Made by a program: the position numbers and the translations under genes. The notes beneath the pieces were generated by a model. The model was not told the DNA's origin, did no database searches, and saw only the letters and a program-made list of their open reading frames with translations. This document shows positions 6,681-21,600 of a stretch of 64,000 nt of DNA, piece after piece (the stretch's first letter is position 1; each line of letters starts with the position of its first letter). The DNA lies in the NCBI GenBank assembly GCA_044892525.1, contig CM097885.1, forward strand, positions 32,924,001-32,988,000. Direction: 5' to 3'. Origin of the DNA: Schmidtea polychroa (Eukaryota).

Positions 6681-9600
6681 CTTAAAAAAAATAAATATAA
6701 TTTTATTCAAAGAAATCACTCTAAAATAATTAAAAGTAAATTAAAGTTGAACATATTTTATCTAATTTTATAAATTCTGAAATTTTCTCTAAAAAAATAA
6801 TCAACAGTACTTATTTCTTTTAAGTCTTTCAAAAACCTGTGAACATTGTAGAATGTTTTTCTCTTTATTCACGTTTCTTCAGAGCAAGTCAGTAGGGAGT
6901 TAGTGGCCCGCGGCAGCAATAGGGGGGGGGGGTAAAAAATGTTGCAAACTTTTGATTGCATAACTTTTTCCGTAGACATTTTTTGATTACATAATTGTTG
7001 CCGTAATGCCCAATGTTTTCTGGGATTTTAAATACAAATTTTTTTTTTTTTTTTTTTTTTTTTCAATAAACAAGCCAAGGATAAATATTATTTGGGTGGG
7101 TCTCCTTGGTCCTGAGAATTTCAATAGAAAAAGGTAGTCTTCAATAAAAAAGCATGGATTTTTCACACTATAGTGAGGGGATCTTCTTGGTCATGAGAAT
7201 TTCAATAGAAAAGGTGGTTTACATTAAAAAACGCATAGTAAATTTTTAAAATAAAGTAAATTATGGGTCTAAAATTTAAAAATAAAGTAAATGATGGGTC
7301 TAAAAATTTAAGTAAATCAAGGTTCAGATTTATTTTTGAAATAAAGTAAATTATGGTCTAAATAAGTAAATTATGGGCTAAGATTTTTCAATTAAAGTAA
7401 ATAATGGTTCTAAAAAAATTAAATTACAGTAAATTATGGTTCTTAAAAATTAAATTAAAGTAAATTATGGTTCTTAAAAATTAAATTAAAGTAAATTATG
7501 GTCAAAATTTTTGAATTACAGTCCAAAAATTTAAATTAAAGTAAATTATGATCCAAATTTTTAAATTAAAGTAAATAATGGTTCTAAAAAATTAAATTAA
7601 AGTAAATAATGGTCCAAATATTTTAAATTACAGTAAATAATGGTTCTAAAAATTAAATTACAGTAAATAATGGTCAAAAATTTTAAAATTAAAGTAAATT
7701 ATGGTTCTAAAAATTAAATTAAAGTTAATTAAGGTCCAAATTTTAAAATTAAATAATCAATGGTAAAAAAAAATTTAAATTAAAGTTAAATAAGTAAATT
7801 AAAGTAATAATTTTTAAATAAGTAAATTAAAGTAATGTAATAAGTAAATTAAAGTAAGATTTTTAAATTTATTAACAAAAATAGAAGGTGTTTGAGAATT
7901 GAAATTTTTTAATGGAAATTTTAATGAATTATTTTTTAAGTAATTTTTAATAGAAATTTTTATGAATAATTTTCAATGGTAATTTTTAATGGAAATTTTA
8001 ATAGAATAATTTTTAAGATAATTTTTAATGAAAATTTTTATGAAATAATAATAATAATAATAATAATAATAATAATAATAATAATAATAATAAAAATAAT
8101 ATTAATAATATATCAACCAAATACTATACAACACATAAAAAATTAACTAAACACATAAAAATAACTAGACACATAACAAAACATATAAACATTAACTAAA
8201 CACATAAAAATGAACTAGACACATAACAAACATAAAAATTTACCAAATAACAAATGTAAAGATATAAAATTTATTCAATAAAATTAGTCCTCATCGGACA
8301 AAATAACGTCATCGATATCGATGTCATCTTCTCCAAAATCTTCATTTAATTCTTCCTCATCTTCTCCATCATTTTCTCCAACATTTTCTGAAACATTTTC
8401 TGCAACAATTTCTCCAACATTTTCTCCAATATTTAATTCACTTAATCTTACATGCCCATATGCAAGACTAGTATTTTGCCCCACCCAAACCCTTTTGTCA
8501 TCTTTGTTAGTTAGTGCTATTTTTGTGTTTTTAATTGTAAAAATTTGATGATTTTTGCTTGTTATTTTAGTCTGAGGAACCGAAAAAATCTGGTTAGTGT
8601 TATAACAATCCAGGTATGACTGATGTTTTATGTCACCACCTTTCAATGTTACACCTTTAGCCTTTTTTGTTTCCTCATCACCCAACAAGCTATAACATTT
8701 AGGTCTAAGAAAAACCCACTCCTCATATTTAAGACCTTTATTCTCGTCTTTGAACTTTCCAATGACTGAATCAAGGTTCTTACTATATAAGGAATGACAA
8801 CTATTGTAATTGGAAGTATCCAATAAATTATCTCGAACCATTGCAGGTAAAAGAACCTCAAGTTTGCAGTTAATGACTTCGAGGAAAAAAGAATCTGTAT
8901 CACCTGCAACGATATTAATTTTACAATTAAACTCATTGCGAAATGATTCCAGATCCTTATATTGCAATTCATACATTCTAAGTTTAGATAGATCAAGTAC
9001 AGATTGACCAATGTAACTCGGTCTATCTAAACATATAGAATCGGAATTCAATAGTGCTGCAATTAAATTATCTGCTATTTTAATAGATTTTTTAAAAGTC
9101 GGTTTTGACGAATATTTAACTAATTTACCGGCAGTTGTACAAAGACGAAGATTCATTCTTCTCTTTAAATTTTCAACTGTTTTGCCGTATAAACTATTAT
9201 TTAGCAATTTATAATAATTTTTATCTAAGCTATTTACGCTTTTTGATCTTAATTCGGTATTTGTATCTATATATTTTTTAAAAATTGGTGATTGCTTAAA
9301 TCTTACACCCCTATTTACACGTGTTACTTTAACACCAAGTTCCAAATATAATTTTAATAATCTCCAATGAATAACATAATTAGATTTTGGAAGATGAGTT
9401 AATAATAATTTTTCAACCTTAGACCCAGCAGGTTTCATTTTTTCAGCAGCTACAGGGAAATCATCCAACTTATCATGAAGCTCAGAAGGAATTACAAGAT
9501 CAACTTCAAGTGTGTATCCATAAGACAAAGATTCAAGATTTAAATTCCTACATTCATCCATTATTTTATCAAATCCATCAAGAACCCAACAAAATTCGCC

Positions 9601-18600: not shown

Positions 18601-21600
18601 CAGATTTTTTCGGTTCCTCAGACTAAAATAACAAGCAAAAATCATCAAATTTTTACAATTAAAAACACAAAAATAGCACTAACTAACAAAGATGACAAAA
18701 GGGTTTGGGTGGGGCAAAATACTAGTCTTGCATATGGGCATGTAAGATTAAGTGAATTAAATATTGGAGAAAATGTTGGAGAAATTGTTGCAGAAAATGT
18801 TTCAGAAAATGTTGGAGAAAATGATGGAGAAGATGAGGAAGAATTAAATGAAGATTTTGGAGAAGATGACATCGATATCGATGACGTTATTTTGTCCGAT
18901 GAGGACTAATTTTATTGAATAAATTTTATATCTTTACATTTGTTATTTGGTAAATTTTTATGTTTGTTATGTGTCTAGTTCATTTTTATGTGTTTAGTTA
19001 ATGTTTATATGTTTTGTTATGTGTCTAGTTATTTTTATGTGTTTAGTTAATTTTTTATGTGTTGTATAGTATTTGGTTGATATATTATTAATATTATTTT
19101 TATTATTATTATTATTATTATTATTATTATTATTATTATTATTATTTCATAAAAATTTTCATTAAAAATTATCTTAAAAATTATTCTATTAAAATTTCCA
19201 TTAAAAATTACCATTGAAAATTATTCATAAAAATTTCTATTAAAAATTACTTAAAAAATAATTCATTAAAATTTCCATTAAAAAATTTCAATTCTCAAAC
19301 ACCTTCTATTTTTGTTAATAAATTTAAAAATCTTACTTTAATTTACTTATTACATTACTTTAATTTACTTATTTAAAAATTATTACTTTAATTTACTTAT
19401 TTAACTTTAATTTAAATTTTTTTTTACCATTGATTATTTAATTTTAAAATTTGGACCTTAATTAACTTTAATTTAATTTTTAGAACCATAATTTACTTTA
19501 ATTTTAAAATTTTTGACCATTATTTACTGTAATTTAATTTTTAGAACCATTATTTACTGTAATTTAAAATATTTGGACCATTATTTACTTTAATTTAATT
19601 TTTTAGAACCATTATTTACTTTAATTTAAAAATTTGGATCATAATTTACTTTAATTTAAATTTTTGGACTGTAATTCAAAAATTTTGACCATAATTTACT
19701 TTAATTTAATTTTTAAGAACCATAATTTACTTTAATTTAATTTTTAAGAACCATAATTTACTGTAATTTAATTTTTTTAGAACCATTATTTACTTTAATT
19801 GAAAAATCTTAGCCCATAATTTACTTATTTAGACCATAATTTACTTTATTTCAAAAATAAATCTGAACCTTGATTTACTTAAATTTTTAGACCCATCATT
19901 TACTTTATTTTTAAATTTTAGACCCATAATTTACTTTATTTTAAAAATTTACTATGCGTTTTTTAATGTAAACCACCTTTTCTATTGAAATTCTCATGAC
20001 CAAGAAGATCCCCTCACTATAGTGTGAAAAATCCATGCTTTTTTATTGAAGACTACCTTTTTCTATTGAAATTCTCAGGACCAAGGAGACCCACCCAAAT
20101 AATATTTATCCTTGGCTTGTTTATTGAAAAAAAAAAAAAAAAAAAAAAAAATTTGTATTTAAAATCCCAGAAAACATTGGGCATTACGGCAACAATTATG
20201 TAATGAAAAAATGTCTACGGAAAAAGTTATGCAATCAAAAGTTTGCAACATTTTTTACCCCCCCCCCCCCTATTGCTGCCGCGGGCCACTAACTCCCTAC
20301 TCAAGTCGAAAAAAATATTAGTCAACCGAAATTATCAAGTAAAAATTGTGATCCAGTATACTCGTGGATTTTCGGAGGTATGCCTTCGGTATGTCTGTGA
20401 AGGAATGGTTGAAATAGAACATTGAAAAACTTGTGGACATATTCTGAGTTTCATTTGTAATTTTAGTATAATGTACCGCGTATTCCGTACTCCCTCAAAG
20501 GTATTTTCATGCTACACTACTGTTATGGAAGGAAGGCCTGACAAATAGGACGATCACCTTAGACTCGGAAGCACAACAAAAGTATAAAAGGCGGTAACAT
20601 GAATGCCATATTTTGATGGAGTCTGGGGGCACAAAATTTAACCCCTAAACTGGGCGGCAAAAAACCTTACAGCTCTGGAAATATTACATAAATAATTGTA
20701 ATAAGTTCGATTTGACTATTAAACAAAATAATCAAAATGACACAATGTGATTTTAAATTAAAATAATTAGCAAATTAAATGATATGCCTTTACTACAAAG
20801 TATTACCAGAAAAGGCTTATCATATCATTTACTAATTATTTAATTGTGAATTGAGGGTGCTACCAGGAAACATTCGCTTTATATTAGCGATTTAATATAG
20901 TTTACACGTATATCTAATACATTTATCAATATTTGTTCACTCACAACTCCGTAATAAAATTCATGACTACACAAAAAGCAACAACTTTGTAGTCGTTTTC
21001 TTCCATATAAATATTGTGCCAAATAGTATAGGGAGTAGAAAATTTTATTCAGGAACAGAAACCAAAGAAAAGTTAAAATAACCGTTAATAATCTTGTTGG
21101 AATAAACATCAAAATGATGGTGTTTATATACTTCAGTACTACATATCAGAGCGAACTGTTATTAGAAGAAACAGTAAAGATATAACTGTAAAAAAGGAAA
21201 ATATCAATATAAAACTGAATGATCTAAATCAAAACTCGAACAATAACATTGTGAACTTATATACCGTTCCATCGTTTTGAATCCCTTCTGCATTTTGCAA
21301 AATAATTTTTATATAACGGAAGTTATTGAGTGTCAGTCAAGTTTCATTGACCATACAAGTGCAAAATTTTGAAATTGCAATGCCATGTCGTATAATCCAA
21401 ATGAACTTTGACGTCAAATAAATGAAACCCTTTGTTTATCGTTAATCTTATGTGTTGACAGTAATAAAATCAGAAGCGCACTGAAGAAAATGGAGTCTAA
21501 TTTAATTTTTTAATGCTCACCGAATTGATTGCCATTAAAATTTTAAAACATACATTTGCTATAAGTTATGCACTTGGATTCCTTAAAATTTCATAATCAG

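What the first reader, a model, noticed from the sequence alone, without database searches (positions are those of the whole stretch)
6891..20301. Integrated giant-palindrome Polinton derivative encoding only two mirror-image protein-primed DNA polymerases
Seen: a 13.4-kb unit with AGTAG...CTACT ends, a perfect 6-bp TSD (CAAGTC), ~6.2-kb inverted arms covering about 92% of its length, one pPolB per arm transcribed outward, and no other substantial ORF. Established: Polintons/Mavericks have AG..CT ends, 6-bp TSDs made by a retroviral-type integrase, TIRs usually up to about 1 kb, and integrase, ATPase, protease and capsid genes. Inference: the TSD surrounds the whole palindrome, so this molecule was probably integrated as a unit by an integrase supplied in trans. 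That would make it a copy-back defective or satellite genome of a Polinton/adintovirus that replicated extrachromosomally and stayed mobile. I do not know of a described family with this architecture.
Basis: partly seen in the sequence, partly recalled or inferred. Interest (0 to 1): 0.92.

Follow-up and report, generated by a model that had tools for sequence, protein, structure and literature searches.

The report
Mobile mirror-image Polinton derivative family
This 13-kb DNA palindrome is one of several hundred scattered copies of a virus-like jumping element that has kept only its DNA polymerase gene, twice and in mirror image, and apparently borrows the integration enzyme from complete relatives in the same animal genome.

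Summary
In detail: 6.2-kb arms at 99.87% identity, AGTAG...CTACT ends and target duplication CAAGTC. It is not a one-off. The exact end motif occurs 303 forward and 301 reverse times in the genome. All 10 sister copies fetched end to end are 13-15 kb palindromes, and 10 of 12 end pairs have their own 6-bp duplication. Arms within a copy differ about 40-fold less than arms between copies, and lesions are shared by both arms. The 1.1-kb centre is a cassette whose ends and interior match the terminal repeat of a complete co-resident Polinton (integrase, ATPase, putative capsid, its own polymerase), the likely helper. A second polymerase lineage shows the same divergent pairing. Variants shared between copies show purifying selection, but this copy's two genes are broken. 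Best reading: a fold-back (snap-back), polymerase-only, non-autonomous Polinton family integrated in trans. No direct parent, free DNA form or expression was shown, and two copies show arm copying inside the chromosome. My literature searches found no description of this architecture. The scan had not noted it before, only a gene-less palindromic relative in the same genome.

The parts
6885..6890 (+). Left target-site duplication CAAGTC
20302..20307 (+). Right target-site duplication CAAGTC
6891..13097 (.). Left arm (6.2 kb), starting with the outer terminus AGTAGG...
   Evidence: exact 34-base end motif 303 forward and 301 reverse hits in the genome
14096..20301 (.). Right arm, mirror image of the left (99.87%)
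7239..8242 (.). AT-rich subterminal tandem repeats (31-bp unit and others); mirrored at 18951-19951
8284..11421 (-). Left pPolB, main stop-free frame (1,045 codons), facing the outer end
   Evidence: mirror of the right-arm frame tested
11381..11908 (-). Left pPolB, N-terminal piece in another frame (176 codons); the frame changes in an A-run near 11,400
15285..15812 (+). Right pPolB, N-terminal piece in another frame
15772..18909 (+). Right pPolB, main frame; PF03175 above cut-off, weak endonuclease VII match below cut-off
12050..12052 (.). Junction where a 713-bp stretch found in 7 of 12 copies is missing. It holds three candidate short exons bounded by GT..AG and the start of the main exon. 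Same junction in the right arm at 15141-15143
   Evidence: the exon reading is a lead from earlier notes, seen by eye, not shown by RNA
12133..12915 (.). Inner-arm tandem repeats (83/84-bp and 144-bp units); mirrored at 14278-15062
13035..14158 (.). Central cassette with its own inverted AGTAGTA...poly-C ends (about 65 bp). The first about 910 bp are 92% identical to the terminal repeat of the complete co-resident Polinton B (L054)
13098..14095 (.). Non-mirrored spacer (the loop if one strand folds back), with 21-bp tandem repeats

Best explanation
A mobile, non-autonomous family derived from a Polinton/Maverick by fold-back. SHOWN: the unit is a giant palindrome of polymerase arm, central cassette and mirrored arm. 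It has been inserted as a whole at many sites with 6-bp duplications and carries no integrase or virion genes. Complete Polintons of a related clade (family B) are abundant in the genome, and the central cassette is B terminal-repeat DNA. INFERRED: (1) the arm is the polymerase end of a B-like ancestor. (2) During protein-primed strand-displacement replication a displaced strand folded at or near the cassette's inverted ends and one arm was copied in place of the gene module. (3) Each displaced strand can then snap back into a 6-7 kb duplex stem with a double-stranded origin and polymerase gene, which would also make the arms of each new copy alike. (4) Integration uses a co-resident Polinton integrase in trans, most likely B's. 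(5) The polymerase was still useful while the family spread; leaderless sub-lineages such as this copy depend on polymerase in trans as well.
For: Copy number: 303 + 301 exact ends, control 0/0. Of 39 adjacent end pairs among 92 of the 100 listed ends, spans are 8.7-16.3 kb (median 13.9); 29 of 39 hold a divergent pair of exact polymerase motifs, and one of the 5 without a listed motif proved mirrored with a one-base variant. All 10 of 10 sister copies fetched end to end have 6.2-7.3 kb arms. 10 of 12 end pairs have a perfect direct 6-bp duplication, all different. Polymerase motif: 1,258 hits; 36 divergent pairs and 0 convergent among the first 100 exact rows. Controls: 0 divergent pairs in 24 and in 20 rows of two conventional families. 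Arm divergence over 3.7 kb: median 0.27 substitutions/kb within copies (n=11) against 11.7 between copies (n=220); each of 22 arms is nearest to its partner. Stops, frame changes and the 713-bp loss sit in both arms wherever they occur. Two of 12 copies show further asymmetric fold-back junctions (L033/34, L051). Helper: L054 has TBP, ATPase and rve integrase, a putative capsid gene, one polymerase motif 2.7 kb from its right end facing outward like the arm, and a 6-bp duplication; its integrase motif has 2,652 hits. A metagenomic relative at 57% identity lies beside a capsid-like and a protease-like gene, and that capsid-like protein is 55% identical to B's. Selection: shared variants 23 synonymous to 15 replacement, pN/pS 0.17, p 6e-8.
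Against: No conventional parent with this polymerase was found: 0 of 14 single A-like genes have B's exact integrase motif 6-14 kb upstream. That covers only 25 Mb and exact matches, and 62 of the 100 listed rows of that variant are unpaired and unexamined. The outer ends share only AGTAG with B. Two of 12 end pairs have host flank mirrored (1,500 of 1,500 bp and 487 of 487 bp read), so arm copying also occurs in the chromosome (or in assembly), and arm identity alone does not prove replication outside the chromosome. The selection signal could be inherited from recombination with unseen autonomous relatives; shared versus private variants differ only at p 0.07. Fetched copies were the top BLAST hits on one chromosome, so they lean young.
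Confidence: 0.68

Rival explanations
1. The palindrome arose once or a few times and is mobilised as an ordinary non-autonomous element. Arm identity is kept mainly by gene conversion or template switching in the chromosome after insertion, and self-folding plays no part in replication.
For: Two of 12 end pairs show mirrored host flank. In one, the copied tract runs past the terminus and returns to a 1.17-kb end piece that carries the matching duplication CAAGTA. Private lesions are shared by both arms.
Against: Ten of 12 end pairs show clean direct duplications; no flank mirroring was seen in 9 of the 10 fetched copies tested. The cassette's own 65-bp ends stay different left and right in most copies while the arms outside are near identical. 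New fold-back junctions occur within the family.
Confidence: 0.17
2. A division of labour: the palindromes are the polymerase segment of a multipartite Polinton-type virus, needed by partner elements that carry integrase and capsid genes.
For: Purifying selection on the polymerase; a centre cassette shared with B and with a second polymerase lineage. 9 of 24 B integrase motifs have no polymerase motif 7-13 kb downstream.
Against: The B element examined has its own polymerase motif, and 15 of 24 B integrase motifs have one downstream. Outer termini differ from B's. 7 of 12 copies are broken and 5 of 12 lack the leader stretch yet have spread.
Confidence: 0.08
3. Assembly artefact: fold-back reads or repeat collapse turned ordinary Polintons into palindromes, or polishing made the arms identical.
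For: Two end pairs with mirrored flanks look as a fold-back read would. No raw reads spanning an element were available (one search used contigs only).
Against: A fold-back artefact mirrors the flank and cannot make ten different direct 6-bp duplications. Arms differ by substitutions in 7 of 11 copies and by indels in some. Conventional families in the same assembly show no pairing.
Confidence: 0.04

Closest known systems
Polinton/Maverick elements (polintoviruses; Alpha-type adintovirus PolB class)
   Same: pPolB with PF03175 match; AG...CT ends; 6-bp duplication; 13-kb size inside the published 13-25 kb range (PMC10748475, passages; PMC8097293, passages).
   Different: No integrase, ATPase, protease or capsid gene. 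Inverted repeats of 6.2-7.3 kb against 100-1,500 bp (PMC10748475) or 46-1,447 bp (PMC8097293). The polymerase lies inside the repeat and is duplicated.
Non-autonomous Polinton derivatives (Repbase-type; recalled, the source paper was not held) and partial copies with pPolB plus TIR but no integrase in C. elegans (10.1101/2024.01.15.575659, passages)
   Same: Polinton ends without an integrase gene; a helper is needed.
   Different: Those are described as remnants or deletion products. Here there is a several-hundred-copy mirror-image family with two outward polymerase genes and a cassette of another family at its axis.
Snap-back / copy-back defective viral genomes (PMC13506859, passages)
   Same: Nearly fully palindromic genome with the same end twice and loss of most genes.
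   Different: That review places copy-back genomes mainly in negative-sense RNA viruses. Here it is DNA, integrated in the host genome, multi-copy and with a conserved gene; interference with a helper was not tested.
Rearranged adenovirus genomes formed at internal inverted repeats (delta-Ad.IR type; recalled, only a reference-list entry to a companion paper seen in PMC3185507)
   Same: Protein-primed strand-displacement replicon in which an internal inverted repeat yields a genome with one end duplicated around it.
   Different: Engineered, transient and not integrated by a viral integrase.
Invertron-type fungal plasmids (pAL2-1; PMC1864894, passages)
   Same: Capsid-less replicons with terminal protein; long inverted repeats attributed to racquet- or panhandle-shaped intermediates.
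   Different: Mitochondrial; the repeats are of flanking host DNA; no retroviral-type integrase footprint.

Membership tests
Polinton/Maverick (autonomous) | [quoted passage not shown] | tested here: met
   PF03175 E 4e-31 above cut-off; broken in this copy. The longer sister protein P0001 returned no PF03175 row, unexplained.
Polinton/Maverick (autonomous) | Retroviral-type integrase gene | tested here: not met
   No other frame above 125 codons in the element; none seen in 10 sister copies at a 130-codon threshold apart from repeat-derived or flank frames.
Polinton/Maverick (autonomous) | Packaging ATPase, protease, major and minor capsid genes | tested here: not met
Polinton/Maverick (autonomous) | AG...CT type ends and 6-bp target duplication | tested here: met
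   10 of 12 end pairs
Polinton/Maverick (autonomous) | Terminal inverted repeats of about 0.05-1.5 kb | tested here: not met
   6.2 kb here, 6.2-7.3 kb in sisters; published ranges
Non-autonomous Polinton derivative | Many insertions with different duplications and no own integrase | tested here: met
Non-autonomous Polinton derivative | An autonomous partner with matching termini in the same genome | tested here: inconclusive
   Family B is complete and abundant, but shares only AGTAG with the outer ends; it matches the inner cassette.
Snap-back defective genome | Palindrome with one parental end present twice | tested here: met
   arm geometry matches B's polymerase end; the direct parent was not found
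Snap-back defective genome | Replication outside the chromosome and helper-dependent packaging | not testable with these tools
   needs native DNA or particles
Snap-back defective genome | Interference with the helper | not testable with these tools
   needs observation in the living host
Segment of a multipartite virus | Partner segment lacks the polymerase | tested here: not met
   B element has one polymerase motif; 15 of 24 integrase motifs have one downstream
Alpha-type adintovirus PolB | N-terminal OTU-like domain ahead of pfam03175 | not tested
   Definition read in PMC8502044; no profile or fold test of the OTU domain was run; no PDB sequence match for P0001.

The most novel reading that the evidence does not exclude
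These are long-lived DNA satellites of Polintons: self-complementary, polymerase-only replicons that snap back into a ready-made duplex after strand displacement, keep their polymerase under selection, and use a shared central cassette taken from the helper's terminal repeat. At least two polymerase lineages have adopted this form and exchange parts. They would be an endogenous record of snap-back defective genomes of a virus group, and indirect proof of Polinton strand-displacement replication through a folded single strand.
Probability: 0.3. Interest if true: 0.88.

Novelty: new variant of a known kind. Interest (0 to 1): 0.72.

Why it matters
Polintons are so far characterised mainly in silico (PMC10748475, passage), and the folded single-strand step of their replication is, as I recall it, a model only. 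A family whose copies are almost wholly self-complementary, and that still inserts with the normal integrase footprint, is the product that model predicts and gives concrete molecules to look for. About 300 copies of about 14 kb (roughly 4 Mb, 0.5% of this genome, counting exact-end copies only) are also a source of local rearrangement: 2 of 12 end pairs carry mirrored host DNA. Surveys that require pPolB next to an integrase (as in PMC10748475 and PMC8097293) would not list such elements, and short-read assemblies would probably collapse them, so they may be overlooked elsewhere.

Tried and rejected
(1) Inverted spacer pairs 10-12.5 kb apart as a long-TIR parent: the one fetched (L051) is a tail-to-tail mirror of two arms, with no new genes. 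Its expected outer arms were absent from two 1.3-kb probes, so its ends are unknown. (2) The capsid-bearing family L052/53 as parent: its polymerase is only 29% identical and shares no DNA similarity with the element. It remains a possible integrase donor. (3) B as a polymerase-less partner: rejected. A 251-base probe inside B showed no polymerase, which only showed that I had guessed the wrong position. My first impression that B-ended elements lack the integrase motif was dropped, because pattern listings show exact matches first. (4) Expression and splicing: no RNA holder listed. Two runs only guessed to be RNA held pieces of the gene, with no splice joint among the rows shown; no evidence either way. 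(5) IMG/VR relatives were all distant (26-33%); none of 13 had arm-length inverted repeats (longest 1.2 kb). Close metagenome relatives lay on contigs of 1-4.5 kb, too short to show or exclude a palindrome (25 of 77 loci inspected). (6) Empty site: neither flank matched another held sequence apart from a 70-bp local repeat. (7) Literature: searches (Polinton or Maverick with palindrome, non-autonomous, long TIRs, bipartite, foldback, defective interfering, planarian names) listed no paper describing this architecture; I saw listings and abstract starts, and passages of the papers cited. sought mechanistic analogues. The original Polinton paper and three adenovirus papers were not held. Repbase and most subscription journals are outside the library and I read no supplements, so a prior Repbase entry or supplementary mention cannot be excluded. 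(8) No structure or complex prediction was run; not needed for the claim.
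Full report
OBSERVATION. The element spans 6891-20301 (13,411 bp). Its arms (6891-13097 and 14096-20301) are 99.871% identical over 6,209 aligned bases, it ends in AGTAG...CTACT and it is flanked by CAAGTC on both sides. Each arm carries one outward-facing pPolB frame (PF03175, E 4e-31; a weak endonuclease VII match below cut-off), and no other frame exceeds 125 codons. 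Both genes are broken at the same places: a frame change in an A-run near 11,400/15,790, and loss of a 713-bp upstream stretch at about 12,051/15,142. That stretch holds three candidate short exons bounded by GT..AG. The exon reading was a lead from earlier notes that I saw by eye; RNA does not show it.

IT IS A FAMILY. The host genome is 781 Mb and AT-rich; earlier notes call it flatworm-like, which I did not test. The 34-base end motif has 303 forward and 301 reverse exact hits, control 0/0. Among 92 of the 100 listed ends, 39 adjacent pairs span 8.7-16.3 kb (median 13.9). 29 of these hold a divergent pair of exact polymerase motifs, 5 hold one and 5 none; one of the last group proved mirrored with a one-base variant. 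Ten sister copies taken from the top hits on contig C1 were fetched as overlapping halves, and all 10 have 6.2-7.3 kb arms. Of 12 end pairs with both flanks read, 10 have a perfect direct 6-bp duplication, each different; 2 have mirrored host flank instead. A 30-base polymerase motif has 1,258 hits at up to 3 mismatches. The listing shows exact rows first: 72 of the first 100 form 36 divergent pairs, with none convergent.

ARMS ARE MADE ALIKE COPY BY COPY. Over 3.7 kb, arms of one copy differ by 0-1.35 substitutions/kb (median 0.27, n=11), arms of different copies by 0.81-24 (median 11.7, n=220), and each of 22 arms is nearest to its partner. Of 12 copies (window, ten sisters, L051), 5 keep a stop-free frame of at least 1,200 codons in both arms and 7 are broken, each at the same place in both arms. 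The 713-bp loss is in 5 of 12, again in both arms where both were read. Two copies have new asymmetric fold-back junctions: L033/34 has lost the centre, and L051 is a tail-to-tail mirror. Against a purely replicative cause: in one copy the mirrored tract runs past the terminus into host flank and returns to a 1.17-kb end piece with the matching duplication, and another pair has 1,500 of 1,500 flank bases mirrored. So arm copying also occurs in the chromosome, or in assembly.

THE CENTRE AND THE HELPER. Window 13035-14158 begins and ends with a second Polinton-type terminus (AGTAGTA... up to a poly-C tract). About 910 bp of it are 92% identical to the left end of a free-standing element, B (L054). 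Nine of 10 sisters have a related centre, more divergent than their arms, and its two short ends often differ from each other. B encodes TBP, an A32-like ATPase and an rve integrase with chromodomain. It also has a 427-aa putative major capsid gene 2.2 kb after the integrase motif (the query's ten best named Atlas hits agree on PF21738, carried by 22-30% of members in the clusters shown, with a low recognition value). It has one polymerase motif facing outward 2.7 kb from its right end, against 2.3 kb in the window's arm. Two of 3 B-ended elements tested have a direct 6-bp duplication; the third sits between mirrored flanks. B's integrase motif has 2,652 hits, and 15 of 24 in the first 7 Mb have a polymerase motif 7-13 kb downstream. 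B is thus autonomous and the likeliest integrase donor. A second capsid-bearing family (L052/53, polymerase 29% identical) is an alternative.

ORIGIN. The nearest database proteins are 40-66% identical and come from metagenome assemblies. One relative (L087, 57% over the C-terminal part) lies beside a capsid-like gene and a weak adenain-like match, and that capsid-like protein is 55-56% identical to B's. The polymerase therefore comes from the same broad clade as B. A direct parent was not found: a close motif variant has 529 hits, 62 of the first 100 unpaired, and 0 of 14 unpaired genes in the first 25 Mb have B's exact integrase motif upstream.

A SECOND LINEAGE. A different polymerase motif variant has 713 exact hits, with 29 divergent pairs, 1 convergent and 1 same-strand among the first 100. 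Rows of two conventional families picked gave 0 divergent pairs in 24 and 0 in 20. Three of its pairs enclose the same cassette motif, and one was read and has the window-type inner arm end on both sides. Its arms and duplications were not fetched.

SELECTION. Over 908 codons in 12 copies, variants shared by two or more copies are 23 synonymous and 15 replacement (pN/pS 0.17, p 6e-8 against neutral; 3 multi-base changes set aside). Private variants are 8 and 16, with one stop and one multi-base change (pN/pS 0.51, p 0.09). The two classes differ at p 0.07. The polymerase was probably functional while the family diversified, unless the variation came in by recombination.

MECHANISM. Shown: palindromic unit, repeated insertion as a whole, no integrase, B-derived centre, abundant complete Polintons. 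Inferred: fold-back during protein-primed strand displacement at the cassette's inverted ends replaced the gene module by a copy of the polymerase arm. Displaced strands can then snap back into a long duplex with an intact origin, and a co-resident integrase inserts the product. That the terminal protein is part of the polinton polymerase is from PMC11071308 (abstract and passages); it implies that this leaderless copy needs polymerase in trans too. Confidence 0.68. Rivals: chromosomal conversion 0.17, multipartite virus 0.08, artefact 0.04.

COMPARISON AND NOVELTY. It works like a snap-back defective genome (PMC13506859, passages) that integrates like a Polinton. It fails membership as an autonomous Polinton (no integrase, no virion genes, repeats four times the published maximum; PMC10748475 and PMC8097293, passages) and fits a non-autonomous derivative. 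Other papers seen as passages: PMC6431247, PMC8502044, 10.1101/2024.01.15.575659, PMC1864894, PMC8532177, PMC3185507 (reference entry only). The adenovirus inverted-repeat analogue and Repbase non-autonomous Polintons are recalled. Searches listed no description of this architecture; Repbase, subscription journals and supplements were not seen. The scan's own index had no look-alike by sequence and no note holding all the key words. Verdict: real, mobile, a new variant of a known kind; interest 0.72.

Noticed in passing
G000:C1, first 99 Mb (for example 79260/88996, 10206700/10217003); L152, L153: A second polymerase lineage (KLKNN motif, 713 exact hits) forms divergent pairs mostly 6-11 kb apart, and at least one copy shares the inner arm end and centre cassette of the window's family.
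   Followed up: partly
L051 (G000:C2:171604500-171614400): Inside-out form: two polymerase genes converge around an asymmetric junction of about 330 bp, with the cassette on the outside. Probes where outer arms were expected found none, so the cassette ends may be its real termini.
   Followed up: partly
L041/L042/L016 (C1 42.58-42.60 Mb) and L030/L023 (C1 9.12-9.13 Mb): Host flank is mirrored beyond the element's end, which points to palindrome-driven inverted duplication in the chromosome or to an assembly error.
   Followed up: partly
L148/L149 (C1 189832-203710): A 13.9-kb unit with B-type ends sits between mirrored flanks, suggesting a still larger palindrome.
   Followed up: no
L052/L053 (C1 165.72-165.73 Mb): A Polinton of another family (DJR capsid, PLA2-like domain fused to a truncated integrase, polymerase) has a second capsid gene in opposite orientation 14 kb away; not explained.
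   Followed up: partly
whole genome: A degenerate polymerase motif has 6,602 hits (control 64), so Polinton-type elements make up a large share of this genome.
   Followed up: no
runs X6-X9: Runs under two different organism labels hold 76-91% of the sampled words of the polymerase region. This may reflect close kin, labelling or recent transfer; not resolved.
   Followed up: no
L075:2926-3267: A metagenomic relative of the polymerase has a dual-specificity phosphatase gene downstream (PF00782, E 2.5e-21).
   Followed up: no
window 3432-5174: A Penelope-like reverse transcriptase frame with a weak GIY-YIG match lies 1.7 kb left of the element.
   Followed up: partly
L054:6540-6590: The B integrase frame contains a short in-frame AT-rich stretch bounded by GT..AG that looks like a small intron.
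   Followed up: no
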